In this document: positions 33,338 to 56,020 of the stretch, in pieces | How the letters are laid out: every line of letters begins with the position of its first letter | Position numbering within the stretch: position 1 is the stretch's first letter | Translations under genes and position numbers: made by a program | NCBI GenBank assembly: GCA_965243205.1 | Contig: CBDEUK010000002.1 | Location: 32,001 to 96,000 of the forward strand | Source: Gammaproteobacteria bacterium | GTDB lineage: Bacteria; Pseudomonadota; Gammaproteobacteria; Eutrophobiales; Eutrophobiaceae | Length of the DNA stretch: 64,000 nucleotides | Reading direction: 5' to 3' | The notes under the pieces: model-generated | Told to the model about the DNA's origin: nothing | The model's input: the letters and a program-made list of their open reading frames with translations, nothing else | Databases searched by the model: none

Positions 33338-33414
33338 TGCGGGGTGGAGCAGTCTGGCAGCTCGTCGGGCTCATAACCCGAAGGTCGCAGGTTCAAATCC
33401 TGCCCCCGCTACCA
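33338..33414 (+). tRNA. tRNA-Met (initiator fMet, anticodon CAT)
   Basis: Cloverleaf with GGG/CCC anticodon-stem pairs, CTCATAA loop, GTTCAAATC T-loop, unpaired 1:72 position, CCA end. Confidence 0.97.
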
Positions 33415-34446: not shown

Positions 34447-34492
34447 CTCATAACCCGAAGGTCGCAGGTTCAAATCCTGCCCCCGCTACCAA
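34447..34492 (+). repeat. 46-bp duplicate of the tRNA-Met 3' end (att site; contains the left 17-bp core of the large element)
   Basis: CTCATAACCCGAAGGTCGCAGGTTCAAATCCTGCCCCCGCTACCAA, identical to 33370-33415. Confidence 0.95.
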
Positions 34493-36139
34493 TTGAACAG
34501 ACGGCTCGAAGTTATCGTTGTCATTAACAGCCATAGCTTCGAGCCGTTTTTCTATCTTTCCTTTGTCTTTCATCGCTTTATCCTCTGTGGCTATCCTCAG
34601 GATGCCTGCCAAGTCGCCATAGAGGTCGATAGACAGCTCGTCCTCACCGTCTTTGGACGAGAGCACGATCTTCTCAATCAGTCCTCGAACCTGTTCTCTG
34701 GCTTCAGCAGCTTTGCCGTCGCTAAGCGCTTTCGTTAGAGCCTCAATCTCAGACCTATATCGACGCGACATAGTGGGATGGATTAGCGGGCGCGGTTCGT
34801 CGTGCTCGTTTTCCGTCTGCGCCGCCAGTTCATCCAGTCTCGCGCTTACTCGTGCCAAATCGTCCTTGATCATTGAGGCTGGAACACCGTCCTTAATCGC
34901 CTGTACGATGTTTTCCCGCTCCTTGGTCAGCTTGGCCGCTTCTGCTTGGCGGCTGGCCAGAGCGGCATTTTGGGCGGCTCTCAGCGCGTTCATGTGGCGG
35001 GCATATTCATCGCAGAAGACCTGCACCAGATCATCCCGCATCAGGTGGCTCTGGAGGGCATTCAGGACTTTGCCTTCCAGCACGCTGCGTTTGATCGTCT
35101 TCTTGTTGGTGCAGACACTCTCGCCCTTGTTTCGGGCAGACGAACAGCCGTAACGCTCGCTGTTGATCTTGGAGTACCCGCCACCGCAGCTTCCACAAAC
35201 CAGTAGACCGGAAAGCAGATATTGAGGGCGCTTTCTGCTACCCAAGTGGCCCGAGCGCTTGTCCAGCGCTTTTTGACGTGCTTTGGCAGCCTCCCAGAGG
35301 CTTTGCGGCACAATCCTCAAATCCGGCACATTCTGGCGTATCCATTCGGATTCAGGGTTAAATCGAGGGACACGGCGTCCTGTAGTCGGGTCTTTGATAA
35401 ACCGCTGGCGGTTCCAGATCAGTTCACCAATATAGAGGTGATTGTTCAAAATGCCCGTGCCGCGTTTGCGGTTGCCATTGATTGTTGACTGTCCCCACGC
35501 CTTGCCCGATGGGCATGGAATTCCGTCTTCGTTTAGGCCGGAGGCTATGGCTTTTGGCGATTTATTCGCATGGGCGTATTCGTGGAAGATGCGGCGCACG
35601 ATTTCCGCCTGATCTTCGTCAATTGCCCGATCCCCGCGAATGGCTTCGCCTTGAGCATTGAACTGCTTGACCACGCGGTAGCCATAGGCAAGGCCGCCAC
35701 CGGACTTGCCATTTTCGACTTTGCCACGCAGGCCACGGCGGGTCTTGTCCGCCAAGTCCTTCAGGAACATGGCATTCATTGTCCCTTTCAGGCCGATATG
35801 CAGTGACGAAATTTCGCCCTCAGAAAGCGTGATGATCTTGACGCCAGCGAACTCCATGCGCTTGAAGATGCCTGCGATGTCTTCCTGATCGCGGGAAAGC
35901 CTGTCCAAGGCTTCCGCCAGCAGGATGTCGAATTCGCCATTCATGGCGGCTGTTAGAAGAGACTGGATGCCAGGCCGCATCAGTGAGGCACCGGATATGC
36001 CTGCATCGGTGTAGCAGTTGACGACTTTCCAATTCTCAGAGTCGGCGCGTTCGGAGCACAGCCGGATTTGATCTTCAATGGAGGCATCGCTCTGAAGATC
36101 GCTGGAATAACGCGCATATATGCTAATGCGTTGTGTCAT
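34448..36139 (-). CDS. Large serine recombinase (integrase)
   Basis: IYARYSS catalytic Ser, LDRLSRD, recombinase domain, Zn ribbon (LLSGLLVCGSCG), coiled coil; C-terminus LVAGAGFEPATFGL is encoded by the antisense tRNA fragment. Confidence 0.95.
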   Translation of the reverse strand: MTQRISIYARYSSDLQSDASIEDQIRLCSERADSENWKVVNCYTDAGISGASLMRPGIQSLLTAAMNGEFDILLAEALDRLSRDQEDIAGIFKRMEFAGVKIITLSEGEISSLHIGLKGTMNAMFLKDLADKTRRGLRGKVENGKSGGGLAYGYRVVKQFNAQGEAIRGDRAIDEDQAEIVRRIFHEYAHANKSPKAIASGLNEDGIPCPSGKAWGQSTINGNRKRGTGILNNHLYIGELIWNRQRFIKDPTTGRRVPRFNPESEWIRQNVPDLRIVPQSLWEAAKARQKALDKRSGHLGSRKRPQYLLSGLLVCGSCGGGYSKINSERYGCSSARNKGESVCTNKKTIKRSVLEGKVLNALQSHLMRDDLVQVFCDEYARHMNALRAAQNAALASRQAEAAKLTKERENIVQAIKDGVPASMIKDDLARVSARLDELAAQTENEHDEPRPLIHPTMSRRYRSEIEALTKALSDGKAAEAREQVRGLIEKIVLSSKDGEDELSIDLYGDLAGILRIATEDKAMKDKGKIEKRLEAMAVNDNDNFEPSVQLVAGAGFEPATFGL

Positions 36140-36630: not shown

Positions 36631-37047
36631 TCAGGCCGCCTTTTTCAGGGTGATGCGCAGCACAATCCACGCGCCAACGAGTGATCCAATCCACCAAGGG
36701 ATATCGGATACCGAGAATTGTTCTAGGATTGCCGCGAACGCTAACAGCACCATTCCAATCGAGGCATACTCCAAGATGCTGGTGCGTTGTACCGCGTTCT
36801 CTATGCGGTATTCACCACGGCTCAAGATGGGAATCGCTTGGCGCTGATGCACCATGCGTCGCCAGATGAAGCTCCGATACCATGCCTTGAGTGCGCCAAA
36901 GAGAAGTAACCAAGGCGAGGCGACATACAAGTAATACGGCCAGTGTGCAGGGGTATAACGGCTATCGGCATTCCCTAAAACGCCGTATGCGCCATAGGCG
37001 AGTGCCAAGAGCAAAATGATGTTGATCCAAACCCGTTTCATCATCAT
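36631..37047 (-). CDS. Hypothetical membrane protein (~4 TM)
   Basis: Hydrophobic segments; TAATG coupling to the virD4-like gene. Confidence 0.7.
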   Translation of the reverse strand: MMMKRVWINIILLLALAYGAYGVLGNADSRYTPAHWPYYLYVASPWLLLFGALKAWYRSFIWRRMVHQRQAIPILSRGEYRIENAVQRTSILEYASIGMVLLAFAAILEQFSVSDIPWWIGSLVGAWIVLRITLKKAA

Positions 37048-38663
37048 TAGTCCCCGTCGAATACCTTATCGAGTGCCTTGCCGATATCGAAGCCGGCACG
37101 CTGAAAATTGACGGGCGACGCCAGAGGTCGATCCGCATAATGCGGATGGATATCGAACAACGGGCTGCCATCCTTTTTGCGGTAGCGCTTATCCAGAAAA
37201 TACGCGGTCTTGAAACACGCAACCGGATAGGCGTGCGACAGGATGAGAATTTGCGCCGCAGGGTGCATCGTTGTGACTTCATCGGGTGTAATCAGACTAC
37301 GGGAAATCAAGCCATCATCGCGGCTCAAATAGTACGGGTCGGACAACAATCCGGCACGCCGTTCGGCACTGGCGTGGCTAACGGATTCAACTGTACCGAT
37401 CCCGCAAAGGCGCGACGTATATTCGGACGTCATCAGATCGTTCGTTCCGAAGATCTGAATGACGCCGCTATTGGCAACGAAGGTCTGCCAGCGTTGTTGG
37501 TATAGGTCTGCGAGCTGATTGAAGTCCTGTACGATCATGTGAAGTTGCATACCGTATCCGGCCATTAGCCCGTAGGCTGTCTCGATAGTTTCCATGCGCC
37601 CCAAGGCCGCCGCTTCTTCAATCAAGAAGTAAACAGGCGGATCGGGCTTGGTCTTGAATCTCGTCACCGCCGTAATGGCGATGCTGATTAACATCCGCAG
37701 AAAGCGGTTGTACGTGAATAGGCGTCCAGCAGGCAGGACGATGAAAATACTTGTCTTGCCGTTTTCCAACTCATCGAATGAAAAGTCTGTTTCTGACAGC
37801 GCACGCTGGATACGTGGGCTTTCGAGAAAATGTGTGTTTTGCTGTGCCGTGGACATAACGCCGGACAGTTCCTTGGAAGCCTTGTTCAGGATACGCGCAG
37901 CCGCAGCGCGGACATACTCATTGCGGCTCTGCGCCATACCCGGATGCACAAGATGAACATTGTCGTCTTCGTCTTTCTCGAAACGACCGCCGACCATTGC
38001 TTTGAAGTCACGCGCAGACAGATTCAGCAATCGGCGAACTTGGGCAAGGTCACGCGATTTCTTGTCCGTTGGGATCAACGGCAGTGGCGTGGCCGCCACG
38101 TACAGGATCAACCCCATAATCAGGTTGCGGGCTTCGTCGTTCCAGAAGGGTTCCTTAACGCCTCGATCCGTAACTATGCTGTCTGCAATGAGAAGTGCGT
38201 CTTCCACAAAGTCATCTCTGTCAGGATCGAGCCAGTCAAGTGGGTTAAATCTTGCTGGTGACACTCCCAGATAGGAGCAGACTTCATCCCAAGGATCGAC
38301 GATGACCAACTTGTGGCCAAGAACATCGCGACGATATCGGCCACAGATTAGCGATAGTTCACCGTCCTTTACGTCAACACCCAAGAAAGAACCCCAATGA
38401 TCCATACAGCGCGGCGCCGAGCTGGTTAGCAGCTTGCCGCTGCGAGTAGGGGCGACGGTGAGCAGGTGGCGTTGCGTGTTTGAGGTAATAGCGAATGCAC
38501 TTCCTTTGGCATTATCCGGCAAGCCATAGCCGAGGAAAATTTTTCCATTTTCTCCATAGTGACGTGTTTTCAAATGCGCTTTGTCTGCCCAACGGGCGGA
38601 ACCGTGCATGTTCGGATCGCGACTATAAATACGCGCCGCTTCATATTGCTCACGGGTTTGCAT
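37047..38663 (-). CDS. VirD4/TraG-like type IV coupling protein lacking N-terminal TM helices
   Basis: HGSARWA, Walker A APTRSGK, DVKDGE, FNPLD, variant Walker B LIEEAAALG, Q..Q...LY, LITPDEV. Confidence 0.88.
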   Translation of the reverse strand: MQTREQYEAARIYSRDPNMHGSARWADKAHLKTRHYGENGKIFLGYGLPDNAKGSAFAITSNTQRHLLTVAPTRSGKLLTSSAPRCMDHWGSFLGVDVKDGELSLICGRYRRDVLGHKLVIVDPWDEVCSYLGVSPARFNPLDWLDPDRDDFVEDALLIADSIVTDRGVKEPFWNDEARNLIMGLILYVAATPLPLIPTDKKSRDLAQVRRLLNLSARDFKAMVGGRFEKDEDDNVHLVHPGMAQSRNEYVRAAAARILNKASKELSGVMSTAQQNTHFLESPRIQRALSETDFSFDELENGKTSIFIVLPAGRLFTYNRFLRMLISIAITAVTRFKTKPDPPVYFLIEEAAALGRMETIETAYGLMAGYGMQLHMIVQDFNQLADLYQQRWQTFVANSGVIQIFGTNDLMTSEYTSRLCGIGTVESVSHASAERRAGLLSDPYYLSRDDGLISRSLITPDEVTTMHPAAQILILSHAYPVACFKTAYFLDKRYRKKDGSPLFDIHPHYADRPLASPVNFQRAGFDIGKALDKVFDGD

Positions 38664-42817: not shown

Positions 42818-44077
42818 CTATTGTTCAGTCGAGTAGGGGTTTAGAAACTGCCGTCGCCAAAAAAGTTTCTTATCCACTTTGCTGAGTTCTGCTTCTTCGC
42901 AGACCGCGCCCCAATTGTTTTCAATCGTGCCTATCAGGTGTGCGAAGATGGCGCGGGCATCGTCGTCCGAAAGCAGGAAGTGGTTTGCCGCTTCAACACA
43001 GGATTTGAGTTGGCTCATATTATTGTTGCCCGATATCAGCATGGCCTGAGATGCCTCATTGCCTGCCCGCCCTTGCGGGCAAATGTCATATGCAGGCGTC
43101 AGAGTCAGCGATCCACCGTCCCAAAAGGCTGCGTGGTTGCGGGCGTGGTCATCGGTATTGCCGCACAGGATATTAAAAGCGAGCCGTGAGAACAGTTCCC
43201 GCAGCGTGTCTTTCGGATCGGTGAAACGGTGGCGAATAATCTCAGCCAGTGTTTCGTAACTGGCGTATCGCGCCATCATGTCGTCCAGTCCGAGCAACGT
43301 CAGTGCTGATACCATGGCCTTGCGAGACCAGTTTCCGCCTTTTGGTTGACGGTCGAAACGCTCGATCAGCAGCACGTCCTTGTTGGCGGCCTTGACCAGT
43401 TTGACTGGCGCGACATTCAATCCGGCAATGTCCGCCAGCCGCATAGCAATAAATTCGGCTTTGACGACGCTATAGAGGTCTGTACTGGATGAAAACTTGG
43501 CGACGTATTTCCTGCCCTGATCTTGAATCAACGCTTTTGGACGCGCCCCGCCAATGGAGCTGCCGTGGAACAACGCCTGATCCAGCTCAGGCGTCAATGG
43601 AACACCTTTCTCGACCCGTTCAGCGGACTCGATAAGCTCTTCCATACTGACGTTATTTGCAGAGCGCGGCACATACTCAGTTGGGGAGCGCTGAAAATCC
43701 AGCGCACCGATCCGGTCGGAGCCGGATTCCAGCAGATAGGTCAATTCGTCCAGCTCGGCTGTATCCGTATCAGCGCCTCTTAGTCCCAGCTTCTTGTTGA
43801 TAATCACGCGCCGACCCCACGCATCGGGAGCAGCGTCCCGAATACAGCCGGGCATGGTCAAACCTTCGGGCAACGGCAACGCTCCGGCTTGCAACGGCAA
43901 TTCAGGTTCGTAAATTGGCATTGCTGCGGGCTGGCCGCCAATACGGTCGAGGTAGCTCTTACCGTAGTTGAACAGAACATTGCCGTTATCCGCCTCCAGC
44001 CGTCCGGCGACCACTGGCGTGGTTTCGTCCGGCAGCCAAATCCAAACGAAGGCTTCTCTTTCGCTGTTAGAAGTCAT
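42818..44077 (-). CDS. hipA: HipA-family Ser/Thr kinase toxin
   Basis: DAAPDAWGR, DRIGAL, SIGGARPK, ERFDR, NTDDHARN, LTPAYD. Confidence 0.93.
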   Translation of the reverse strand: MTSNSEREAFVWIWLPDETTPVVAGRLEADNGNVLFNYGKSYLDRIGGQPAAMPIYEPELPLQAGALPLPEGLTMPGCIRDAAPDAWGRRVIINKKLGLRGADTDTAELDELTYLLESGSDRIGALDFQRSPTEYVPRSANNVSMEELIESAERVEKGVPLTPELDQALFHGSSIGGARPKALIQDQGRKYVAKFSSSTDLYSVVKAEFIAMRLADIAGLNVAPVKLVKAANKDVLLIERFDRQPKGGNWSRKAMVSALTLLGLDDMMARYASYETLAEIIRHRFTDPKDTLRELFSRLAFNILCGNTDDHARNHAAFWDGGSLTLTPAYDICPQGRAGNEASQAMLISGNNNMSQLKSCVEAANHFLLSDDDARAIFAHLIGTIENNWGAVCEEAELSKVDKKLFWRRQFLNPYSTEQ

Positions 44078-44405
44078 CGCGTACCGCCTTCGATTTCTTG
44101 CGAATGGACTTCGGTAGCAGTGCTAGTTTGTCCTTGGTCTGGTTCAGGTGTTTGGAAAGCGTGGTTTCATCAGCGTCAAAGAGCTTTACCCTGACAATGG
44201 TGGCCACTTCAAACATCGCGCCGATTTCGCACTTAAGGTCGCCTTTTTCAATGCGTTGCAGCAGACCTCTGGAAATGCCCGCACGGTCGGCCACTTCCTG
44301 AGCGGTTAGCTTGCGTTCTTTGCGTGCTTCACGGATCAGTGCGCCAAGCAATGCAGTTGCATCGCGGCTGTATCGAGAATAGGTACGTGTAATTGACTTT
44401 GGCAT
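44067..44405 (-). CDS. hipB: HipB-like XRE HTH antitoxin
   Basis: IREARKERKLTAQEVADRAGIS...RIEKG HTH; overlaps hipA. Confidence 0.85.
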   Translation of the reverse strand: MPKSITRTYSRYSRDATALLGALIREARKERKLTAQEVADRAGISRGLLQRIEKGDLKCEIGAMFEVATIVRVKLFDADETTLSKHLNQTKDKLALLPKSIRKKSKAVRDDF

Positions 44406-44416
44406 CGCTCAAAAAC

Positions 44417-44550
44417 TGATCTGTATATAGCCCACAAAACTGCCTCATGGGCTTTCTATGAACCAAAATAGTAGCTCTGAATGATTTTGTCAAGATAAAA
44501 ATGATCCTTATATAGATCATAAAACGCTTTTGTGATCTATATGTAGTGCA
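44417..44550. promoter_or_regulatory. Candidate HipB operator array (TGATC-N8-GATCA)
   Basis: Perfect ATGATC-CTTATATA-GATCAT at 44501-44520 plus degenerate copies at ~44417 and ~44533. Confidence 0.5.
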
Positions 44551-44553
44551 TTT

Positions 44554-45867
44554 CTAGTGAGTAGAGCTTATCGTCTCCACGACCAGAGCGATCTTCTGAA
44601 GCCATTTGAGCTTTTGCTTCAGACTCGGACCATCCCCATAACGGGGACGGTCGTAGCGATGTCCCATCAACGCAGCCTGAACCTTGTCAGGGGGTTCTAC
44701 GGCGGTCAGTCGATCTTCGAAGCTGTGGCGGAGGCTGTAAACGGTATGGTTTTCGCTCGGCAGTAAGCCGTGATCGCGAAGGTACTTATTCAAATTCGCT
44801 GATAGCTGGTCTGGTTTGCGGTAGTACCGATCAAAGCCGTTGCCTAATTCTCGGAAGGCATAGAGCGAAGCGCCGACCAGCGGAATTTGCCTCTTGCTGT
44901 AGCGATTCTTGATTTCTTTGGTTTCGTCAGGCCGGATAAAAATAAACGGAATTTCAGTATCCAGCCTAATATCTCCGGCTTCAGGGTTCAGGCCAACCAA
45001 CTCGGACGGCCTTGCCCCTGTATCGGCGAACGCAAAAAGGAAATACTTTGCTTCGCTGTTCAACCCCTTCAGATTTTTGTGATTGAGCAGTGTGTTGGCG
45101 ATAAAGTCCGTCTCAAACGGCTTTTTCTCACTGTCACCTTCTTTGAAGTGGATACGAGCAAAGAGCGCGTCCACATCAAAGGGGACATCCTTGTTATCTT
45201 GCGCAAAGGTGAGCAGGGACTTCAGATGCGTTAAATCCTTGTTCGGCGAATTGGGCGACATGCGTTCTTCCTGAAGGCGATCAGCCCACCATGCCCGAAA
45301 TGTCAGGATATGATCGCGGCTGATTTCATCGGCTGATAAATCGCCGCAAACGTTCAGAAAGTTCCGAAACGCCTTGATGCGCGGGTTTCTCCACTTGCGA
45401 AGCTGGTTCTCGGTCTTGCCGATCAGGTTCGGCTTCGTGAAGGCGTAGTAGTCTTCCCATAGTTCATCCAATGGCAAACGTGGCTTGTCGAAGACACCGA
45501 GCAATGCGCCTACTGTTTCCTCGTCCAGTGTTTCTTGCGCGGCGAGCGTGTTGGTTCGGTTGATGATCTTGTGCAGCTCGTCCTGCGCCAATTCATCGAC
45601 GGATTTGTATGAGAAGTCGTAAGCCTGCGCGATCTCAATCGCACGCTGAAAAGCCCGATCTTTATCGTAGGAGGGGCGGTCGGACAATCTCGACCATATT
45701 CTTTCGATTTCTTTGTCGAGAATAGAAGCGCGTTGTATAGCGACGGATTCTGCATCGGTCTTTAACGCTACTTGCAGAAACTGCTTTCCATTGTAGTGTT
45801 CTCGATGTTGTTTTGGTATTCGTCTCTTGTAGTGAAACCATTTCCCTATTTTTATGTATCGCCGCAT
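44554..45867 (-). CDS. Tyrosine integrase (N-terminal arm-binding-like domain)
   Basis: TGARPSE (R), YSLRH (HxxR variant), LMGH, RYG (catalytic Y); N-terminal HYKRRIP...VALKT. Confidence 0.92.
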   Translation of the reverse strand: MRRYIKIGKWFHYKRRIPKQHREHYNGKQFLQVALKTDAESVAIQRASILDKEIERIWSRLSDRPSYDKDRAFQRAIEIAQAYDFSYKSVDELAQDELHKIINRTNTLAAQETLDEETVGALLGVFDKPRLPLDELWEDYYAFTKPNLIGKTENQLRKWRNPRIKAFRNFLNVCGDLSADEISRDHILTFRAWWADRLQEERMSPNSPNKDLTHLKSLLTFAQDNKDVPFDVDALFARIHFKEGDSEKKPFETDFIANTLLNHKNLKGLNSEAKYFLFAFADTGARPSELVGLNPEAGDIRLDTEIPFIFIRPDETKEIKNRYSKRQIPLVGASLYAFRELGNGFDRYYRKPDQLSANLNKYLRDHGLLPSENHTVYSLRHSFEDRLTAVEPPDKVQAALMGHRYDRPRYGDGPSLKQKLKWLQKIALVVETISSTH

Positions 45868-46131
45868 GTGTCAAAAAACGTGTGAAAATTGTGTGAAAAT
45901 TTCAATATACAGCGAATACGTAAAGATACCCTTTACGTCAATGGCTTAATCGAAACACACAGTGAGCAAGCGTTTGGTTTTTAGCGGTGAATGTTGGGAA
46001 TTGTGTGAAAATGGCTCCCCGGGCCGGATTGGAAATGCTCTTTTGAGGCAGGCTAGAGCATTGAAATAGCTTTCTTATTATTCTTCGCTAAGTTTCTGTG
46101 TGTGAAAATTGTGTCAAAAAGTGTGTGAAAA
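45867..46131. other. Intact attP-like site of the tyrosine integrase: tRNA-Asn-like core flanked by arm repeats
   Basis: Seven direct TGTGT(G/C)AAAA-type repeats (triplets at 45867-45899 and 46099-46131, one at 46002). Core 46012-46034 is the reverse complement of TTCCAATCCGGCCCGGGGAGCCA. Confidence 0.75.
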
Positions 46132-46133
46132 AA

Positions 46134-46445
46134 TTATGTCGCTCTGCCCGTCATGAAAATTGTGGATAACCTTTCTTGAGCTACCTGTTTGGCAAGCTGC
46201 AACAGATCGTTTTGGTCTTCGTATTTCTTGACTTCGCGGTGAAGTCTTTCGAATAGTGGCAGGTATTTGTCACCATATTTGCTGACGATCCTCGCAAGTA
46301 ACTGGTACGCCTGAGCAACATCATTATAGTTGATGTCGCCTTTCTCCAGCCTTGCCTCAATTGTAGCGATCAGAGTGCTGCTTAATTCTTGGTGCGGCCT
46401 GCACTTCGATAAACAATATCTAAGACTCCAGTCGCTTCTTGCCAT
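46134..46445 (-). CDS. Hypothetical protein coupled to the AlpA-like gene
   Basis: TAATG overlap; YGDKYLPLFERL motif. Confidence 0.65.
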   Translation of the reverse strand: MARSDWSLRYCLSKCRPHQELSSTLIATIEARLEKGDINYNDVAQAYQLLARIVSKYGDKYLPLFERLHREVKKYEDQNDLLQLAKQVAQERLSTIFMTGRAT

Positions 46446-46768
46446 TAGGTGGCCTCCTGCTGGATAGACTGGTGGTATCGGTGAGGGTTCTTGATCCATT
46501 CGTGCAAGTCCCGCAGATAGAAGGCCTTGTAGTTTGAATTTCTTTTTCTGGATATCTTACGAGGCGCGGGAAAAGTACCGCACTCTATCCGGCGGTTAAT
46601 TTCTCGACGGGATATACCGCAGAGCTTCACGGCCAGCTTTATCGGTATCAGCGCATTGCTTTGAATCATCAAAGCGGCAGTGACTTGCGCTTCAAAATCG
46701 GCTTTGATACTTCTGCCCTTCAGAATCTCTTCCATGGTGCAATCCTTTCGCAAATTAACGAGCGGCAT
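46445..46768 (-). CDS. AlpA-family HTH regulator / excisionase (alternative start 46735)
   Basis: LCGISRREINRRI..G.FP.P..I...AF...DL.EWI. Confidence 0.78.
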   Translation of the reverse strand: MPLVNLRKDCTMEEILKGRSIKADFEAQVTAALMIQSNALIPIKLAVKLCGISRREINRRIECGTFPAPRKISRKRNSNYKAFYLRDLHEWIKNPHRYHQSIQQEAT

Positions 46769-47205
46769 TGCCGCTTATCTTCACTGCACCCATGTCTGAA
46801 AATGAGGCAAACCGTCAATGACGGGAAGTGGTTCGTGCTCTCGAAGAAGCCACACCTCTACCCTAATGCTACGCTGAGTCTCTTAATAATTCGTTAATAC
46901 CTGCCGAAAAATGCACGCTCACAGCGGCTTTCGATCTAGCGGGTCAGTTCAGAGCATGTCATTCAGTCCTTTTGCTTTGCGAACCGAAGAATAGTTATTT
47001 CGTGCCTTATTGCGTGAACGCTACCCGACAGGTGGCTCGAATCAAATCATTTTTCCCGTAAACGGCTGTAAAGGCGATAAATCGCCAACAGCCGCTAACA
47101 GTCCCCCACAAAATATTTTGACACGAGCCTATCTCCTGACGGGTTGATCGCTGTTCACAAGGCCGAAATACCTCGGTTCTTGAAACAAGCAAAAGGAGAT
47201 TACTC

Positions 47206-47436
47206 ATGACAACTCAAGAAAACACTGCAACGCAGAAAGCCAGCTCGAAGCCTACTCATAACCTTCGTAAGAAGATCGGCTACGGCAAGCAAACCGAATT
47301 CGAAACTATCGGTGTCGCATGGGCACGAGAAGACGGTGGCTTCTACGTCAAGCTCTACGGAACGCAGGTCATTGATGGCGGCTTTTACGCCGTTCCAGTG
47401 AAGCAGGATGCAGAAGAGACAGAGAGCGGCAACTAA
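47206..47436 (+). CDS. Small protein with IGVAW motif (DUF736-like, possibly ssDNA-binding)
   Basis: Strong RBS AAGGAG; ETIGVAW...GGFYVKL; followed by a terminator. Confidence 0.7.
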   Translation: MTTQENTATQKASSKPTHNLRKKIGYGKQTEFETIGVAWAREDGGFYVKLYGTQVIDGGFYAVPVKQDAEETESGN

Positions 47437-47449
47437 GCCGCTCTTTTTT
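47421..47449. terminator. Probable terminator between convergent genes
   Basis: AGAGCGGC-AACTAA-GCCGCTCT followed by a T run. Confidence 0.65.
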
Positions 47450-48254
47450 ACTGGAGTTTCGGGAGGCCATTACTGATGACATCTCGAAACAATCCGTCTA
47501 CGTCTGCACTTTCAGAAATTCCCGCAGAGATATTGATCATATGACTTTTTCCGAATTGATCGCCTAGGGTTGTGAACTCACTAGCCGTGCAAGAGTTCGG
47601 GTCATTTTCCCTCAAATTCGCGAGCGCAACATTCGTATGAATTATGCCAATGGAATGACCGAATTCGTGCGTAATTGTGTCTTGCACTTTTTCGAGCAAC
47701 GAAAATCGCTGGCTGACTGTGTGCTCCTGCATGAATCGCTGCGCACCCATGTCTATGCCAATGACTGGTTCAGATAGACTTGAATATGATTTTCTTCCTA
47801 ATTCGTCGAGTTCCTCATTGTCATTTGTTGGGAAACTGGCAAAGCCACTTATATGGCTATTGCCATCAAAAGCAAATATGCGTAGGTCGGGATTCTGGTC
47901 GATAGGTACGAATTCGATTTTCCCTGTGTACCAAAATCCAATCGCTTGCCGCACAGCGTCCTGAATGCCATTGGGGAAAGTGTCTGGCTCGCCCAGATCG
48001 AATTGCTTCTCGTCGAGATAAGAAGATAATTCTTCGGTCATTAGCTCAGGTGGAAAGTCGCCCTCTACAATTGCGATCTTCATTGTAGGGAGCGTCATAA
48101 GAGGCTTACCCGCAGGTTCGTCGCCATTCATCAGAATGCCGTGCTCCAGAACCGCCTGCCTACATTGATCACTAATATTCATAATTATGGATACTGTGAT
48201 TGCACGATCACTGTCAAGTTTTGACCACGGCCTAATGCCCCAGAGCGTTTTCAT
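47448..48254 (-). CDS. Metzincin-type zinc metalloprotease (matrixin-like)
   Basis: HEFGHSIGIIH (HExxHxxGxxH), upstream GFASFP, downstream SHM as a possible Met-turn. Confidence 0.75.
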   Translation of the reverse strand: MKTLWGIRPWSKLDSDRAITVSIIMNISDQCRQAVLEHGILMNGDEPAGKPLMTLPTMKIAIVEGDFPPELMTEELSSYLDEKQFDLGEPDTFPNGIQDAVRQAIGFWYTGKIEFVPIDQNPDLRIFAFDGNSHISGFASFPTNDNEELDELGRKSYSSLSEPVIGIDMGAQRFMQEHTVSQRFSLLEKVQDTITHEFGHSIGIIHTNVALANLRENDPNSCTASEFTTLGDQFGKSHMINISAGISESADVDGLFRDVISNGLPKLQ

Positions 48255-48917
48255 TGTTCGTCCTCGGAAAGGTGTCGGTATATATTCCTATTGCCGTCAG
48301 GTTAGTGCTTGGGGCATAGTCCGGCACAACCGTCATCGCGCATCTAGCATCTGTGTCTAACGGTGCGACGCGAGTGCAGCATAGTTTCGGTTTTGGCGAA
48401 AACCCGTGTCTGCGATGACCGCAAGATGTGTGCGTGTAGTACAAAATCTTCGATTTCGTCCTCCCCGCACCATCTTGGCAAGGGAGATAGCTAGCCGCTC
48501 TCCCGTTGCATCCCTCATGGCCGCTCTAGGCTTCAGCCGCAGGAAACCTGCATCTTCAGGCAAGAGCTGAGTGGTGCATACAAGGCATCGAGCCTTTGCT
48601 GCACCAGCGAACGTGTGGCCGTTCGATCACCATTGGGGAGTCTTCAGCGCTCCCGCAAACCCCATCGACCAGAGCTTGGAGAAGTGCCTCTCCATCTGGA
48701 CTGAACCATGCACCAACCGTCCGCCGTTTGGATACCGTGAACAGGTCGCTGTTCAATCACGACCAACCCTACGCGGATTGGATGCCGTAAGCGTTCTGCC
48801 GCTTAACCACAGCCAAGGAGCGTCCTTGGATGCGTGTATGACCGCTCATTTCGGCTCTAATTGTCTATTCCGTAATTTTCCATTATTCTCTCACCCATCA
48901 TTCGAGTGGATAAAAAA

Positions 48918-49100
48918 ATGAGTGATGAAATTATGACCTTGAAAGAGGTCGCTGAATATCTCAAGTTGAATGAGAAGACGGCATACCGTCTCGCCGCAGA
49001 AAACAAATTACCCGGCTTCAAAGCTGGTGGCAGTTGGCGCTTCAAACGGACAGATATTGAGCAGTGGATCGCCGCTCAAATATCGAATGAAAAAAAGTAA
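48918..49100 (+). CDS. Excisionase-like HTH_17 DNA-binding protein heading the defence operon
   Basis: IMTLKEVAEYLKL...YRL....LPGFK.GGSWRF. Confidence 0.85.
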   Translation: MSDEIMTLKEVAEYLKLNEKTAYRLAAENKLPGFKAGGSWRFKRTDIEQWIAAQISNEKK

Positions 49101-49112
49101 CGGGATAATTTG

Positions 49113-52100
49113 ATGACAGCACTTCAAAAACTACTTGATTCATTTCGAACGGCGGCAGTGACCGAGCGAGAGAAAGGCACATATTTTGAAGAGCTGACAA
49201 GAACATATCTGCGCCATGAAGCGACCTATAGAGACCTGTATAGCGATGTCTGGCTTTACGCTGATTGGGCAAAAGAACAAGGCATTGACGGCAAAGATAC
49301 CGGCATAGATTTAGTCGCGAAAACCAATGGAACTGACGAATTCCATGCCATTCAGAGCAAGTTCTATGCAGAGGACTATCGCGTCCAAAAGTCAGACATC
49401 GATAGCTTCTTTACGGCTTCCGGCAAAAAGCCTTTCACGCACCGCATCATCGTCACGACGACCAATAATTGGAGTGAAAACGCCGAAGATGCTTTGCAGG
49501 GGCAGCAACCGCCAGTCTCAAAAATAGACCTATTTGATTTGGAAAACAGCCAGATCGATTGGTCTAAGTTCCAGCCCAACCAAAAGCCGGTACTGAAAGA
49601 AAAATATGGTCTACGAGCGCATCAGAAAAAGGCGCTCAGTGAAGTTAAGGCAAATCTAAAAAACGCTGATCGCGGCAAAATGATCATGGCTTGTGGCACG
49701 GGAAAAACCTTTACAAGTCTACGGGTGGCCGAGGATTTGGCCGGTAGCGGTAAACGTGTCTTGTTCTTGGTGCCGAGCTTGGCTTTGCTGTCCCAAACGC
49801 TAACGGAATGGACGCAACAAAGCCTTATTCCTCTTCATAGCTTTGCGGTTTGCTCAGACAGCGATATCGGTAAGAAACGTAAGAAAGATGACGATGTTGT
49901 GCAGACCTTTATGCACGAACTTCGCTATCCGGCGACCACGAATGCCAAATCGCTTGCCGATGAGATGGCGAAACGGCATGACGCAGCGCACATGAGCGTC
50001 GTGTTTTCGACCTATCACTCTATTGCTGTTATCAGCGAGGCACAAAAAAAGCATGGTCTTGGCGACTTCGACTTGATTATCTGTGACGAGGCGCACCGCA
50101 CAACCGGAGCGACCTTTGAAGGGGAAGAAGAAAGCAAATTCGTCAAGATTCACGATAACAGCTTCATTCGTGGCAAGAAGCGAATTTACATGACTGCCAC
50201 CCCGCGTATCTATGGAGATAGCGCACAGGCCTCGGCGGAAAAAGACAACGTCGCACTTTGCTCAATGGATGATGAATCCCTTTATGGCAAGGATTTGCAT
50301 GTTATTACGTTTTCCGAGGCGGTCGAACGTGGCCTCTTGGTGGACTACAAGGTCATTGTATTGACCGTAGATGAAGCGCATATCAGCAAGCGACTGCAAA
50401 GCCTTTTGGCAAACGAAAATAATCAGCTCAAGGTCGATGATGCGGCCAAAATCGTAGGGTGTTGGAAGGCACTCAGTAAACAGGATCAGGAAGACGGACT
50501 TGCCGATGATAGTGATCCTATGCAACGCGCCGTTGCATTTTGTCAGGTCATTGAAGCAACAACCGGAAAAAAGACCCACAAAGTCAGTTCAAAGAATATA
50601 GCCAACATGTTTCAGGCTGTTGTGGAGGCGTATCAGGAGCAGGAAGAAGATCACAATACGCTTGTCTGCGAAGCGGCACATGTAGATGGCAGCATGAACG
50701 CTACGGAAAAGGAGGCGAAGCTCCAATGGTTAAAGCAGGAAACCCCTAAAGACACATGCCGAATTCTTAGTAATGTTCGCTGTCTTTCCGAAGGTGTAGA
50801 TGTTCCGGCGCTCGATGCCGTCCTCTTCCTAACGCCGCGCAATTCACAGGTTGATGTTGTTCAGTCTGTCGGGCGCATTATGCGAAAAGCCCCAAACAAG
50901 ACGCGGGGCTATGTAATTCTGCCCGTTGTGATCCCAACCGGTATGGAGCCTTCTAAGGCGCTAAACGACAACAAAATCTACAAAGTGGTCTGGGAAGTTC
51001 TGCAAGCCTTGCGCTCACATGATGATCGCTTTGACGCGATGATCAACAAGCTGGACTTAATCGGAAAAGACAATCGCAAAATGGAAGTGATTGCGATTAC
51101 AGACAAGATTAAGCCGAAAGCAAAGAAAACCACGGGAACGAAAAACAAAGATGCGGGAAAGCGAAGCTATTCGATAGGCGAGAAGGAAGCCGAGTATCAA
51201 CCCAGTCAAAGTGAATTGCAGTTCGAAGTTGGAGAAATTGAACGCGCCCTCTATGCCAAGGTTGTTCAGAAATGCGGCAACCGTAGTCACTGGGAAGACT
51301 GGGCAAAGGACATTGCGAAGATCGCAAAAACCCATATTACGCGTATTACAACCATTGTCACGGATTCAAAGAACAAGAAAGAAGTGGCGGCATTTCAGTC
51401 TTTCGCCAAGGAACTACGGGATGACCTGAACGACAGCATTACGGATGGCGAGGTGATAGAGATGCTAGCGCAACACCTCATTACCAAGCCCGTGTTTGAT
51501 GCCTTGTTCAAGGAGTATAGCTTCGCCAGCCATAACCCAGTATCGCAAGCGATGCAAAAGGTTCTGGATATATTGCAAGAACACAGGCTGGACAAAGAGG
51601 CCGATACCCTTGAGAAGTTCTACAACAGCGTCCAGATGCGAGCGGAGGATATTGATAGCGCGGAAGGGAAGCAAAAGATCGTAGTCGAGCTATACGACAA
51701 ATTCTTCCGGAACGCATTTCCGAGAATGACCGAACGACTCGGCATTGTTTATACGCCGGTTGAGGTCGTGGATTTCATCATTCACAGCGTTAATGACGTG
51801 CTGCAATCCGAATTCGGCCAAACATTAGGAAGCAAAGGCGTTCACATTATTGATCCGTTCACGGGAACCGGCACGTTTATTACGCGGATGTTGCAAAGCG
51901 GGCTTATCAGTAAGGAACAGCTACCTCATAAGTACAAGAACGAAATTCATGCAAACGAAATTATCTTGCTGGCTTATTACATCGCAGCGATAAATATTGA
52001 AGCGGTTTATCACAGTCTCGTTGGCGGCGACTATCAACCCTTTGAAGGCATTTGCCTGACCGATACGTTCCAGCTCTATGAAAAAGACGACATGGTGAGC

Positions 52101-54005
52101 AAGTTGATGGTGGACAACAGCGCTCGACGGACTCGGCAAAAAGAGTTGGATATTCGGGTGATCATGAGCAACCCGCCATACTCCGCCGGTCAAAAAAGTG
52201 AAAATGATAATAATGCAAACATAGCCTACAGCAATTTGGATGGGCGCATTCACGATACATACGCAGCGCATTCAACAGCTACTACTACCAAAACTTTGTT
52301 GGATTCATATATTCGTTCGATGCGTTGGGGAAGCGACCGTTTGGGTGACAGTGGCGTTATGGCATATGTCAGCAATGCTAGTTATTTGGATGGCAACTCT
52401 ATGGATGGATTACGAAAGTGCTTACGCGAAGAATATAGCAGTCTCTATGTATTTCATCTGCGAGGCAATCAGCGCACATCTGGAGAGCAGTCGCGTAAAG
52501 AGGGAGGAAAAATATTTGGGTCTGGGAGTCGCGCCCCTATAGCGATAAGCCTGTTTATCAAAAATCCAAATAAAGAAAAACGCGGGAATATTCACTTTTA
52601 CGATATCGGCGACTATCTAAGCCAAGATGAAAAGCTTGCAATCGTTTCTGAGTTTAAGAGCATAAATGGTATTGCCGCTGATGATGCTTGGCAAACCATT
52701 AAGCCCGATAAACACAATGACTGGCTTAACCAACGAGATGACAGTTTTGACGAGCATATAGCGCTAGGGAGCAAAAAGGATAAGACTGCTAAAGCGTTAT
52801 TTGAAACATATTCACAGGGATTGCAAACGAGCAGGGATGCGTGGTGTTTTAACGCTTCGAAAAAAGTTCTTCAATCCTGCGTCAAAAGAATGATCGACTT
52901 TTACAACTCAGAAATTGTTCGACTTGAAGAATATAGAAAGGAACATCCAGATACAAAAGCTAGCCAATTTGTCACTAAAGATTCAAAGAAAATAAGTTGG
53001 TCGAGTAGCCTTTATCCAAAAGTGGACAAGGGAATTTTGGCTTCGTTATCACTGAAAAGCATCGTCAAATCGCACTACAGGCCTTTTGAAAAACAGTGGC
53101 TTTTTTATGATGACATGTTCAATCACCGACAAAGCAAAATACCGAATATATTTCCGGCAGAAGGTTTTGACAATTTGGTGATTTGTGTAACCGGCACTGG
53201 GGAAAGCAAGGAGTTTTCTGTATTCATCAGTGATTCCATACCAGAGTATAAGACGCATTATAACTGCCAAAATTTTCCGCTAAAAATATATGAAAAAAAT
53301 ACGGAGACCTCTGCCAATGATCTTTTCGCGCCAGAGGCGGGGGAAGAGGATTATATTGTCAAAGACGGAATTACAGATGTTGGGCTTGCGCATTTCGAAT
53401 CGGCTTATCCAAAGGAAAATATCACTAAGGAAGATATTTTCTTCTATATCTATGGCTTGCTACATTCGAAAGACTATCGAACTCGCTATGAAGATAACTT
53501 ATCAAAGCAACTGCCGCGCATACCATTTGTAAACACCGCTAAAGACTTTTGGGCATTTAGCGAAGCAGGAAGAAAGCTTAGTGAATTACATGTGGGATAT
53601 GAAGACGCTGATCTTTACCCAGTAAAGTTGGAGGGCAATCCCAATACCGATAAAGATTACTATGTTACAAAAATGAAGTTCGGTAAGTCTGGCAAAGAAA
53701 AGGACAAAACCACGATCATCTATAACGAGCATATCACTATCAAAAACATTCCGGTCGAAGCGTATGAGTACGTAGTGAATGGGAAGCCCGCTCTCGAATG
53801 GGTCATGGAACGCCAATCCGTTAAGACTGACAAAGCCAGCGGAATAATTAACGACGCCAATCTCTACGCTATTGAAACAGTTGGCAATGCGAAGTATCCC
53901 TTAGAATTACTTCAACGAGTGATAACGGTAAGTCTGGAAACGATGAAGATCGTAAAGACGTTGCCACCGTTAGATATTGACGTTGCCGGTCAGGGGGGCG
54001 CATGA
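49113..54005 (+). CDS. Type ISP restriction-modification enzyme (Mrr-like nuclease, SF2 helicase, N6-adenine MTase, target recognition domain)
   Basis: DTGID...IQSK nuclease, ACGTGKT, DEAH, Q.VGR..R, DPFTGTG, NPPY, LlaGI/LlaBIII-like C-terminus (AYEYVVNGKPALEWV). Confidence 0.92.
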   Translation: MTALQKLLDSFRTAAVTEREKGTYFEELTRTYLRHEATYRDLYSDVWLYADWAKEQGIDGKDTGIDLVAKTNGTDEFHAIQSKFYAEDYRVQKSDIDSFFTASGKKPFTHRIIVTTTNNWSENAEDALQGQQPPVSKIDLFDLENSQIDWSKFQPNQKPVLKEKYGLRAHQKKALSEVKANLKNADRGKMIMACGTGKTFTSLRVAEDLAGSGKRVLFLVPSLALLSQTLTEWTQQSLIPLHSFAVCSDSDIGKKRKKDDDVVQTFMHELRYPATTNAKSLADEMAKRHDAAHMSVVFSTYHSIAVISEAQKKHGLGDFDLIICDEAHRTTGATFEGEEESKFVKIHDNSFIRGKKRIYMTATPRIYGDSAQASAEKDNVALCSMDDESLYGKDLHVITFSEAVERGLLVDYKVIVLTVDEAHISKRLQSLLANENNQLKVDDAAKIVGCWKALSKQDQEDGLADDSDPMQRAVAFCQVIEATTGKKTHKVSSKNIANMFQAVVEAYQEQEEDHNTLVCEAAHVDGSMNATEKEAKLQWLKQETPKDTCRILSNVRCLSEGVDVPALDAVLFLTPRNSQVDVVQSVGRIMRKAPNKTRGYVILPVVIPTGMEPSKALNDNKIYKVVWEVLQALRSHDDRFDAMINKLDLIGKDNRKMEVIAITDKIKPKAKKTTGTKNKDAGKRSYSIGEKEAEYQPSQSELQFEVGEIERALYAKVVQKCGNRSHWEDWAKDIAKIAKTHITRITTIVTDSKNKKEVAAFQSFAKELRDDLNDSITDGEVIEMLAQHLITKPVFDALFKEYSFASHNPVSQAMQKVLDILQEHRLDKEADTLEKFYNSVQMRAEDIDSAEGKQKIVVELYDKFFRNAFPRMTERLGIVYTPVEVVDFIIHSVNDVLQSEFGQTLGSKGVHIIDPFTGTGTFITRMLQSGLISKEQLPHKYKNEIHANEIILLAYYIAAINIEAVYHSLVGGDYQPFEGICLTDTFQLYEKDDMVSKLMVDNSARRTRQKELDIRVIMSNPPYSAGQKSENDNNANIAYSNLDGRIHDTYAAHSTATTTKTLLDSYIRSMRWGSDRLGDSGVMAYVSNASYLDGNSMDGLRKCLREEYSSLYVFHLRGNQRTSGEQSRKEGGKIFGSGSRAPIAISLFIKNPNKEKRGNIHFYDIGDYLSQDEKLAIVSEFKSINGIAADDAWQTIKPDKHNDWLNQRDDSFDEHIALGSKKDKTAKALFETYSQGLQTSRDAWCFNASKKVLQSCVKRMIDFYNSEIVRLEEYRKEHPDTKASQFVTKDSKKISWSSSLYPKVDKGILASLSLKSIVKSHYRPFEKQWLFYDDMFNHRQSKIPNIFPAEGFDNLVICVTGTGESKEFSVFISDSIPEYKTHYNCQNFPLKIYEKNTETSANDLFAPEAGEEDYIVKDGITDVGLAHFESAYPKENITKEDIFFYIYGLLHSKDYRTRYEDNLSKQLPRIPFVNTAKDFWAFSEAGRKLSELHVGYEDADLYPVKLEGNPNTDKDYYVTKMKFGKSGKEKDKTTIIYNEHITIKNIPVEAYEYVVNGKPALEWVMERQSVKTDKASGIINDANLYAIETVGNAKYPLELLQRVITVSLETMKIVKTLPPLDIDVAGQGGA

Positions 54006-56005
54006 GTAATGTCAATATAAAAAGGGCTGTAGAAAACATACGTTCTGGCACGACCGTCTATACGCCGCTTGTCGAGATGATCGTTAATGCGATTCAGGCC
54101 ATCGACAGTAAAAAGACAGAGGACGGTGAAGTTCAGGTAATCGTCAAGCGCTCCGGCCAAGAGGACATAGAAAACAAAATCCCGCCGGTAGAGAGCTTCC
54201 TAATCACGGATAACGGTATCGGATTTACCGATGAAAATCGGGATTCATTTGATACGTTGTACTCAGACTTCAAGATTTCGCAGGGCGGAAAAGGTTTCGG
54301 GCGTTTTACATGCTTACGATACTTTGAGGATTTGCACGTCGATAGCATTTATTCCGAAGGTCAGGCATTCAAACGCCGAAAATTTTCGATGGGGAGAGAC
54401 AATGACATCATTGTTAGTGAAAAAATCGAAGATACAGGCGAAAAGAGTTCTAAAACAACCGTAACGCTTTCATCGGCCAAGGACGGCAAGTTCACCGATA
54501 AGAAGCTATCAACCATTGCCAGAGTCTTGGTTGAGAAGTTGTTGCCGTATTTCATTGCACAAGACTATTCCTGTCCGAAAATATCGCTCATAGATGAGGG
54601 GAAATCGGAGGGCATTATCCTCAATGAGTTCGTCAGCAATGAGCTATCCGGCTTGATTAAGGAGATGAATGTTGCCGATGGCCACTATTCACTGAAAGGT
54701 ACACACGCGGATCATCAATTTTCAGTGCGCGTGTTCAAGTTCTATTCACCCAAGAGCCAGCGTAGCAAGATTAGCTTGGTGGCTCATAGGAGGGAGGCGA
54801 CTGATACAGCTATTCACAACTACATTCCAGAGTTTATCGATGAGTTTTACGATAAGGACGATACCGGATCGGATGACGTCGAGAAAAACTATATCGTAAA
54901 GGCGTATGTGTTTAGCGATTATCTCGATGACAACGTATCGCTGGAACGTGGTGGCTTCGAATTCCAAAAAGACAATGATCTTTTACTGGGCGTTTCTCAA
55001 AGTGATATTGAAAGTGCTGCCGCACAGATCGCCAAAGAAGCTGTTGGCGAAGATATTGTGGCGCGTCAGGAACGGAAGGTGGAGCGTGTTCGCTCATACG
55101 TTGAAGAGGAAGCACCGTGGCACAAGGCGATCATAGCAAGCGTTGATCTATCAACAATGCCGTACAAACCCTCTGATGCGGAAATAGAGGCTTTGCTACA
55201 AAAGGAGAAATACAAGCAAGAGGTTCAAATAAAGGGCAAGGTCAATAAGTTGCTCAATGAAGCCACGATTGACGATCTAAAGACCGATGTGCGCGAGATC
55301 GTCAATCAGATATCCGAAACAAGCAAGAATGACCTCATCCACTACATTGCCTTGCGCCGTGATGTGCTGAACCTCTTCGAAAGAAACTTGGAGCTTGATC
55401 CAGACGGTCAGTATTCGTCCGAAGGCACAGTGCATGACATCATCTTTCCGCGACGGCAAGACGACGAAGGCACATTCTTTGAAGAACACAACTTATGGAT
55501 CATTGATGAACGTCTGAATTTTACCAACTACGTTTCGTCGGACTTGCCCCTCAATGGAGGCAACTCGGAAAGACCGGATTTACTGGCCTACGATAACCGT
55601 GTGCTATTCAGGGGTGACAATGAGGCCAGCAATCCCGTCACAATCTTTGAGTTTAAGAAACCGCAGAGAGATGACTTCGTAAATCCTTCATCCAAGGAAG
55701 ATCCGGTTCAGCAAATCGTCCGGTACGTGAATAGCATTAAGGCCGGTGATTACAAAACACCAAAAGGCCGGAAAATACTGGTTGCTGAAAATACGCCATT
55801 CTATGGCTATGTGGTTTGTGATTTAACCAGCAAGGTAGAAAAGTGGCTTGAAACTGAGAAGGACTTCAAGCCGATGCCGGATGGCCTTGGATGGTTTCGC
55901 TGGCATGGAAATATCAACTTGTATATCGAAGTCATTAGTTGGGACAAAGTTCTGAAAGATGCAGGTATGAGAAACAAAATATTCTTCAAGAAGTTGGGAA
56001 TATAA
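54002..56005 (+). CDS. GHKL (MORC/MutL-like) ATPase fused to a C-terminal PD-(D/E)xK nuclease-like domain
   Basis: E.IVNAI.A, DNGIG, GGKGFGRF; C-terminal RPDL...IFEFKKP...QIVRY; ATGA overlap with the Type ISP gene. Confidence 0.82.
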   Translation: MSNVNIKRAVENIRSGTTVYTPLVEMIVNAIQAIDSKKTEDGEVQVIVKRSGQEDIENKIPPVESFLITDNGIGFTDENRDSFDTLYSDFKISQGGKGFGRFTCLRYFEDLHVDSIYSEGQAFKRRKFSMGRDNDIIVSEKIEDTGEKSSKTTVTLSSAKDGKFTDKKLSTIARVLVEKLLPYFIAQDYSCPKISLIDEGKSEGIILNEFVSNELSGLIKEMNVADGHYSLKGTHADHQFSVRVFKFYSPKSQRSKISLVAHRREATDTAIHNYIPEFIDEFYDKDDTGSDDVEKNYIVKAYVFSDYLDDNVSLERGGFEFQKDNDLLLGVSQSDIESAAAQIAKEAVGEDIVARQERKVERVRSYVEEEAPWHKAIIASVDLSTMPYKPSDAEIEALLQKEKYKQEVQIKGKVNKLLNEATIDDLKTDVREIVNQISETSKNDLIHYIALRRDVLNLFERNLELDPDGQYSSEGTVHDIIFPRRQDDEGTFFEEHNLWIIDERLNFTNYVSSDLPLNGGNSERPDLLAYDNRVLFRGDNEASNPVTIFEFKKPQRDDFVNPSSKEDPVQQIVRYVNSIKAGDYKTPKGRKILVAENTPFYGYVVCDLTSKVEKWLETEKDFKPMPDGLGWFRWHGNINLYIEVISWDKVLKDAGMRNKIFFKKLGI

Positions 56006-56020
56006 GTAGATGAGGAAGCA

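What the first reader, a model, noticed from the sequence alone, without database searches (positions are those of the whole stretch)
44554..46768. Second, unused integration module: tyrosine integrase, intact attP for a tRNA-Asn-like target, and AlpA
Between the integrase and the AlpA-linked genes is a core whose reverse complement (TTCCAATCCGGCCCGGGGAGCCA) looks like a T-arm plus acceptor end with CCA. It is flanked on both sides by triplets of TGTGT(G/C)AAAA arm repeats. Arms on both sides indicate an unrecombined attP rather than attL or attR, and I found no second core copy in the window. From memory, the GGGGAGCCA end fits alphaproteobacterial tRNA-Asn better than the E. coli type (CAGAGGAGCCA). 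Inference: one element carries two orthogonal integration systems (serine/tRNA-Met and tyrosine/tRNA-Asn) and uses whichever target the host offers. Use of both could invert or split the element.
Basis: partly seen in the sequence, partly recalled or inferred. Interest (0 to 1): 0.7.

Follow-up and report, generated by a model that had tools for sequence, protein, structure and literature searches.

The report
Mobile island with spare integration system
A 27-kb mobile island entered this marine bacterium's chromosome with one enzyme but carries a second, intact and unused docking system, and a related island was found inserted by that second kind of system with the first left unused, which suggests these islands can choose between two ways in.

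Summary
Confirmed and extended. A mobilizable island (34476-61882) sits at the initiator tRNA-Met through a large serine recombinase. In its middle lies a complete tyrosine module: an intact integrase, an excisionase-like gene and an unrecombined attP (two arm triplets, IHF-like sites, a core matching a real tRNA-Asn 3' end in 22 of 23 nt; no partner copy in the genome). The same island, also at tRNA-Met with the same spare attP, is in a second gammaproteobacterium; the spare integrase has dN/dS 0.08. The reciprocal state exists in a relative (L010): circularly permuted, at a tRNA beside its tyrosine integrase, with an intact serine attP inside. Limits: L010 uses tRNA-Ser, its far end is not on the contig, no close Asn-core relative was found at tRNA-Asn (0 of 3), and no recombination was seen in reads. 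In the integrase's clade 19 of 21 sequences have no tRNA beside them (17 scored as unrecombined attP), against 34 of 57 tRNA-adjacent outside it. Two-integrase elements are in print; either/or use shown by mirror states was not found in nine searches. This scan noted similar spare attP sites twice on other DNA.

The parts
44554..45867 (-). Tyrosine integrase, 437 aa, N-terminal DUF6538; intact
   Evidence: R286, K320, R380, H403, Y410 invariant in 78 of 78 aligned sequences (catalytic role assigned from family knowledge); model matches lambda Int over its full length
45867..45899 (+). Integrase-proximal arm triplet (45867, 45879, 45890); first copy touches the start codon
   Evidence: identical in G001
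45936..45976 (+). Two weak IHF-like sites on the integrase side (45936-45948, 45964-45976; 2 mismatches each to a recalled consensus)
   Evidence: weak alone (shuffles give a hit in 58% of trials), position +33 to +35 recurs in the clade
46002..46011 (+). Seventh arm-like copy touching the CCA end of the core
   Evidence: identical in G001; role unknown
46012..46034 (-). attP core: copy of a tRNA-Asn(GTT) 3' end (T arm remnant, acceptor strand, CCA), unrecombined
   Evidence: 22 of 23 nt, last 19 contiguous, to tRNA-Asn of L107/L120/L185; CCA about 145 nt before the integrase start, where relatives have their tRNA end
46054..46066 (-). IHF-like site 55 nt before the CCA end
   Evidence: same place (-54 to -56) in 16 of 19 unrecombined clade loci, 0 of 2 tRNA-adjacent ones (consensus recalled, up to 2 mismatches)
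46099..46131 (+). Distal arm triplet (46099, 46110, 46122)
   Evidence: identical in G001
46134..46499 (-). 121-aa ORF without family hit, repeatedly beside this integrase family
   Evidence: no hit; homologues beside the integrase in many loci
46445..46768 (-). Excisionase/AlpA-like regulator, probable directionality factor
   Evidence: PHROG 2790 and 66; dN/dS 0.06 against G001; role inferred
33338..33414 (+). Host tRNA-Met(CAT), target of the serine system
   Evidence: the upstream host gene and this tRNA match relatives of the host, the island does not
34476..34492 (+). tRNA-side serine att junction (within a 46-nt copy of the tRNA 3' part, 34447-34492)
34448..36139 (-). Large serine recombinase, 563 aa, reading through its att site; the integrase in use here
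   Evidence: Pfam Resolvase + Recombinase + Zn ribbon; 90% identical copy at tRNA-Met in G001
37047..38663 (-). Type IV coupling protein (VirD4/TraG-like)
59946..61710 (-). MobC (61279-61710) and MOBP-like relaxase (59946-61289)
61866..61882 (+). Far serine att junction, end of the island
   Evidence: GC falls back to host level; same end in G001
42818..59815 (.). Cargo on both sides of the tyrosine module: HipBA pair, Type ISP restriction-modification, ATPases (one PDC-S06-like), ArdA
   Evidence: HipBA and the restriction block are not shared with G001

Best explanation
The island is an integrative mobilizable element whose circular form carries two independent attP sites. In a new host one system acts and the other stays whole inside the island. 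Here and in G001 the serine recombinase inserted the circle at the conserved 3' end of initiator tRNA-Met, so the tyrosine attP (arms, IHF-like sites, tRNA-Asn-type core) is left intact in the middle. In a host whose tRNA matches the tyrosine core well enough, the tyrosine integrase can insert the same circle, which opens it at another point and leaves the serine attP inside. Shown: anatomy, conservation, purifying selection, mirror state in one relative. Inferred: that this very integrase is active, that its target is tRNA-Asn, that IHF and the excisionase-like protein take part, and that the benefit is wider host range or escape from occupied sites.
For: Complete attP anatomy at the family's usual distance from the integrase. 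Same island in G001 with arms and core unchanged; integrase dN/dS 0.076 and excisionase-like 0.06, like the serine recombinase in use, 0.088. Mirror state L010: host genes, tRNA-Ser, integrase (59%), VWA, coupling protein, serine recombinase (70%), intact serine attP matching both att halves of the window, mobC, relaxase (60%), in the order predicted by permuting the window's island. L011 has an integrase 97% identical to L010's with an unrecombined attP. L028 is a second backbone at tRNA-Met with a different, inverted tyrosine module and intact attP. A distant family member in G954 is flanked by two copies of the same 17-nt tRNA-Asn end, without the T loop, so the T-loop mismatch in our core need not be decay; L066/L067 show a 14-nt block.
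Against: Only 1 mirror-state locus with both systems; it targets tRNA-Ser, is a metagenome contig, and its far junction is not held. 0 of 3 Asn-core subclade members are at tRNA-Asn. G001's tRNA-Asn shares the last 10 nt and looks vacant but is not used. Only 6 of 19 unrecombined clade rows show a second full-size integrase in the DNA held, and in L012/L013, L022 and L006/L007 it may belong to a neighbouring element. No joint or loose end at the tyrosine core among the rows shown (contigs drop rare forms; 81 loose ends were not shown). dN/dS covers past time and synonymous divergence differs along the island (0.12-1.7), so modules are exchanged.
Confidence: 0.68

Rival explanations
1. Passenger: the tyrosine module came in by recombination between related islands (a cointegrate) and is carried without being used by this backbone; its good state reflects recent use in another element.
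For: Mosaic divergence along the island and a swapped module in L028; the module sits between two variable cargo regions; 19 of 21 clade rows are not at a tRNA.
Against: L010 shows a tyrosine module at a tRNA on a backbone that still has the serine system; integrase, serine recombinase and relaxase have diverged to similar degrees between window and L010 (59, 70, 60%), which fits long co-residence; no long direct repeat flanks the module.
Confidence: 0.17
2. Other job: the integrase and its site serve mainly to resolve island dimers or to fuse with other elements that carry tRNA ends (accretion, cargo capture), not to enter the chromosome.
For: The clade is mostly unrecombined, unlike its relatives (17 attP, 2 unclear, 2 tRNA against 8, 15, 34).
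Against: Cores copy many different tRNA ends with CCA, which a resolution site would not need; 2 clade members sit at whole tRNAs (L010, L030).
Confidence: 0.08
3. Sequential use: both systems act in one cell, inverting or splitting island and chromosome as in tripartite ICEs; the window shows the state after step one.
For: Known for Mesorhizobium ICE3 (PMC8627217, PMC5882170, passages); the host tRNA-Asn shares 10 nt with the core.
Against: No locus with both systems recombined among those examined; two hosts hold the single-piece state.
Confidence: 0.05
4. Artefact: misassembly or chance tRNA likeness.
For: The genomes are metagenome-derived or of unknown make.
Against: Contigs of two runs of one sample span 34465-47389 and 34465-52900 with no difference (probably the source sample); independent copy in G001; a contig of run X2 bridges 45752-46448 at about 91% identity.
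Confidence: 0.02

Closest known systems
Phage lambda Int/attP and tRNA-targeting island integrases (for example IntS/attP of ICEMlSymR7A)
   Same: Tyrosine integrase with an N-terminal three-stranded domain, fold match to full-length lambda Int; arms on both sides of a core, IHF-like sites, neighbouring excisionase-like gene; core restores a tRNA 3' end. Lambda anatomy is recalled; IntS from PMC8627217 passages.
   Different: Here the attP is whole inside an integrated element because another enzyme did the insertion; the integrase is 14-17% identical to the solved ones.
Tripartite ICEs of Mesorhizobium (IntS, IntG, IntM)
   Same: One circle, several integrases, several attP sites, tRNA targets (PMC8627217, PMC5882170, passages).
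   Different: ICE3 uses all three sites in one chromosome and is split in three; this element is mobilizable only, mixes a serine and a tyrosine enzyme, and is seen with one site used at a time.
ICEs, phages and pipolins with two integrases
   Same: 21 ICEs with two or more integrases, six with both types (PMC5587801, passages); staphylococcal phage TEM126 and Gordonia phages with one of each, roles called unclear (PMC6507118, passages); pipolins with IntSXT plus a secondary IntP2 and excisionase (PMC11551731, section 16 and passages).
   Different: In the passages read, none maps an intact second attP or shows mirror integration states.
Integrative mobilizable elements (MOBP relaxase, MobC, coupling protein, defence cargo)
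   Same: Gene content and lack of mating-pore genes.
   Different: In a recent survey 82% of att-delimited islands had one recombinase and serine ones were under 1% (10.64898/2026.01.13.699239, passages; other taxa).

Membership tests
Arm-binding tyrosine integrase | Catalytic domain with R, K, H/Y-x-x-R, H, Y residues | tested here: met
   R286, K320, Y377-S-L-R380, H403, Y410 invariant in 78 of 78; PHROG integrase; fold matches Tn1549 Int, lambda Int, XerA. Tyr stands where His is usual (recalled).
Arm-binding tyrosine integrase | N-terminal arm-binding domain | tested here: inconclusive
   Model has three strands and a helix in residues 4-63 and aligns over all of lambda Int; binding to the repeats not tested.
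attP of lambda type | Arm repeats on both sides of one core, no partner core | tested here: met
attP of lambda type | Core identical to a tRNA 3' end, placed where relatives have the tRNA end | tested here: met
attP of lambda type | Host-factor (IHF) sites between arms and core | tested here: inconclusive
   2-mismatch hits; fixed position in 16 of 19 loci, but any-position hits occur in 39% of shuffles
attP of lambda type | Recombines with attB | not testable with these tools
   needs an assay; no joint seen
Integrative mobilizable element | att-bounded, integrase, relaxase, no mating-pore genes | tested here: met
   all ORFs of 100 aa or more on the main frames were scanned and none gave a VirB/Trb hit
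Integrative mobilizable element | Excision and transfer with a helper; oriT | not tested
   oriT not sought; the same island in two gammaproteobacteria of about 37% and about 53% GC implies transfer
Tripartite/multipartite ICE | Element split in separate chromosomal pieces by several att pairs | tested here: not met
   single piece, one att pair
Tripartite/multipartite ICE | Own conjugation (mating-pore) genes | tested here: not met
   only coupling protein, relaxase and MobC

The most novel reading that the evidence does not exclude
One clade of DUF6538 integrases lives mainly as a plug-in spare integration kit on mobilizable islands. The kit is retargeted by swapping the last 7-14 nt of its core (closely related integrases in L023, L028, L029, L030 carry four different tRNA ends), it gives islands a second way into distant hosts, and islands in this state are the single-piece precursors from which split elements like tripartite ICEs can arise.
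Probability: 0.3. Interest if true: 0.72.

Novelty: new variant of a known kind. Interest (0 to 1): 0.55.

Why it matters
Second integrases on islands and phages are usually written off as relics or left unexplained. Mirror states of one backbone give a direct, cheap test of the idea that they are alternative entry routes. If true, island ends and host range cannot be read from the integrase at the junction alone, the step towards split elements becomes testable, and the family offers tyrosine integrases whose tRNA target may be changed through a short core.

Tried and rejected
Partner att site: none in window or genome or in G001 apart from its tRNA-Asn and two other 10-nt hits that were not inspected. 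Tandem accretion at tRNA-Met as the source of the attP: rejected, the core is Asn-type and no long repeat flanks the module. Reads: only contigs were available; no joint or loose end at the core among those shown, which proves nothing. Intact serine attP pattern in viral contigs: 0; relaxase in viral contigs: 0; serine recombinase there: 2 distant loci without the tyrosine integrase. Class-wide searches found 1 other genome in 400; one search drew the same sample again and adds nothing. Longer stretches of five metagenome contigs were not held. Profile search of solved structures: 0. Plasmid collection: only distant integrases, 35% or less. Second core copy in L017/L037 and 10-11-nt repeats in L041, L057: treated as chance, no arms or tRNA context. 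The IQ-TREE run did not finish; the tree is FastTree. Promoter scan gave no more than shuffles. Papers without bearing in the passages read: PMC12884075, PMC9262239, PMC10121019. Two papers were not held (tripartite ICE 2016; tRNA sublocation 2002).

Full report
Setting. The window lies on contig 2 of a 2.79-Mb, 36.7% GC genome. Its EF-Tu clusters with proteins labelled Gammaproteobacteria and marine bacterium. GC rises to about 50% between 34 and 62 kb. That stretch is bounded by a 17-nt copy of the tRNA-Met 3' end at 34476-34492 and 61866-61882. It encodes a large serine recombinase that reads through the tRNA-side junction, a coupling protein, a VWA protein, HipBA, the tyrosine module, a Type ISP restriction enzyme, ATPases, ArdA, a relaxase and MobC, and no mating-pore gene was hit. 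It is an integrative mobilizable island inserted by its serine enzyme. A 1-kb HicAB islet lies between it and the whole tRNA.

Observation. The integrase is uninterrupted, with the residues expected for catalysis invariant in 78 of 78 aligned homologues (role from family knowledge). Its model (mean pLDDT 87) has a three-stranded N-terminal domain and matches Tn1549 and lambda integrases, the latter over the full length. Seven arm copies surround the core: three, one touching the core, three. Six exact copies in 270 bp compare with 0.0018 expected. The core has no partner in the genome. The downstream gene matches excisionase families in PHROGs only.

The core is a real att core. Among relatives, the integrase typically starts about 130-160 nt behind a tRNA 3' end on the same strand; our CCA lies at about -145. 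The core equals tRNA-Asn ends in L107, L120 and L185 in 22 of 23 nt. The one mismatch is in the T loop, and two relatives with both junctions show identity blocks of 17 nt (G954, the same Asn end) and 14 nt (L066/L067) that leave the T loop out. An IHF-like motif (recalled consensus, up to 2 mismatches) lies 54-56 nt before CCA in 16 of 19 unrecombined clade loci and in neither tRNA-adjacent one; any-position hits occur in 39% of shuffles, so the fixed position is the signal. The exact 17-mer is in 65 of 391 genomes of the phylum, all listed outside the host's class, but also in the tRNA-Asn of G231 within it.

Same island, second host. G001 (record titled Ca. Azotimanducaceae, about 53% GC) holds the island at tRNA-Met with both ends, other cargo, and the tyrosine attP whole; arms and core are unchanged. 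dN/dS is 0.076 for the tyrosine integrase, 0.06 for the excisionase-like gene and 0.088 for the serine recombinase. This covers past time, and dS varies from 0.12 to 1.7 along the island, so modules recombine. L002 (69%) also has an unrecombined Asn-type core, and one contig of run X2 bridges the site at about 91%.

Mirror state. On the minus strand the window reads mobC, relaxase, cargo, attP, tyrosine integrase, cargo, VWA, coupling protein, serine recombinase. L010 reads host genes (38% GC), tRNA-Ser, tyrosine integrase, VWA, coupling protein, serine recombinase, mobC, relaxase. Between recombinase and mobC it has one site that aligns with the inner half of the window's left junction and the inner half of its right junction, that is a whole serine attP. 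L011, from the same metagenome, has an integrase 97% identical with an unrecombined attP. Against over-reading: this is 1 locus, its target is Ser, its far junction is not in the 11 kb held, and its coupling protein and VWA are only 25-34% identical to ours. L028 is a third backbone, at tRNA-Met by a serine recombinase of 81%, with a different tyrosine module (44%) in the opposite orientation and a whole attP.

Family pattern. Of the integrase loci fetched, 78 had enough upstream DNA to score (the rest, about half, were left out), 15 were added, 2 short and 13 near-duplicate rows were dropped, leaving 78 in a FastTree tree. The clade with our integrase (21 rows, support 97) has 17 attP, 2 unclear (attP-like by eye) and 2 tRNA-adjacent rows; the other 57 have 8, 15 and 34. 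Labels were automatic for most and by eye for the 15 added; kin are not independent, and free circles would also score as attP. A second full-size integrase is visible in 6 of the 19 (window, L001, L028 serine at tRNA-Met; L012/L013 tyrosine at tRNA-Lys; L022 tyrosine near tRNA-Phe; L006/L007 P4-like); 13 show none in the DNA held, many being short contigs. Four close integrases (L023, L028, L029, L030; end branches 0.07-0.14) have four different tRNA ends.

Why unused here. Both hosts' tRNA-Asn share only the last 10 nt with the core and differ within the last 14. In this host a serine recombinase gene of another element reads into tRNA-Asn; in G001 no integrase query hit the 10 kb behind it. 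Either 10 nt is too little or the serine route wins. This is open. Contigs from four runs showed no joint at the core, which cannot exclude rare events.

Mechanism and odds. Most likely (0.68) the circle has two attP sites and either enzyme can insert it, leaving the other kit whole. Rivals: unused passenger (0.17), another job such as resolution or accretion (0.08), sequential use that splits the element (0.05), artefact (0.02).

What is known. Elements with two integrases are in print: PMC5587801 (passages), PMC6507118 (passages), PMC11551731 (passages and section 16). Several attP sites on one circle are known from tripartite ICEs, where all are used: PMC8627217 and PMC5882170 (passages). 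PMC8627217 also proposes competition for sites as the cause of integrase switching. I found no paper on DUF6538 integrases, none on serine islands at tRNA-fMet under those words, and none showing mirror states (listings seen). Most subscription papers are not searchable, two relevant ones were not held, and no supplements were read; island tables there could hold such cases. Earlier notes of this scan describe spare attP sites on two other islands; they are unchecked and not counted as support.

Verdict. A real, conserved spare integration kit on a mobilizable island, with comparative evidence that this island family enters chromosomes by either route. New variant of a known kind; interest 0.55.

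Noticed in passing
window 34448-34492 and L010:17740-17989: The serine att site lies inside the recombinase gene: the integrated form ends in 13 tRNA-derived codons, the circle-type form in L010 runs about 45 residues further and overlaps mobC.
   Followed up: partly
window 33415-34446: 1-kb HicAB islet without integrase between tRNA-Met and a 46-nt copy of its 3' part, with short repeats near both ends; absent in G001.
   Followed up: no
G000:C1:12660-15734 (L171): Host tRNA-Asn is followed by another element: a serine recombinase reading into the tRNA and a Xer-like tyrosine recombinase.
   Followed up: partly
L023, L028, L029, L030: Closely related integrases with four different tRNA-type cores; left part of the core alike in three, last 7-10 nt different.
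   Followed up: partly
window 38650-41024: VWA protein and two unknown ORFs (226, 207 aa) travel with the coupling protein in G001, L010, L028, L029; possibly a non-canonical mobilization block.
   Followed up: no
window 48918-49100: Second small excisionase-like HTH gene just ahead of the Type ISP enzyme (PHROG 66, E 2e-13).
   Followed up: no
G000:C2:1023781-1024724: Cluster of five atypical tRNA genes, perhaps in a prophage.
   Followed up: no
G000 ends of C1 and C2: Long arrays of a 279-bp repeat at the right ends of both contigs, with a strand switch inside the C2 array; likely the cause of the assembly break.
   Followed up: no
L015:1500-1710; L017/L037 tRNA-Pro: Two tRNA-like fragments at the island edge in L015, and a tRNA-Pro between mobilization genes in L017/L037, with no integrase found nearby.
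   Followed up: no
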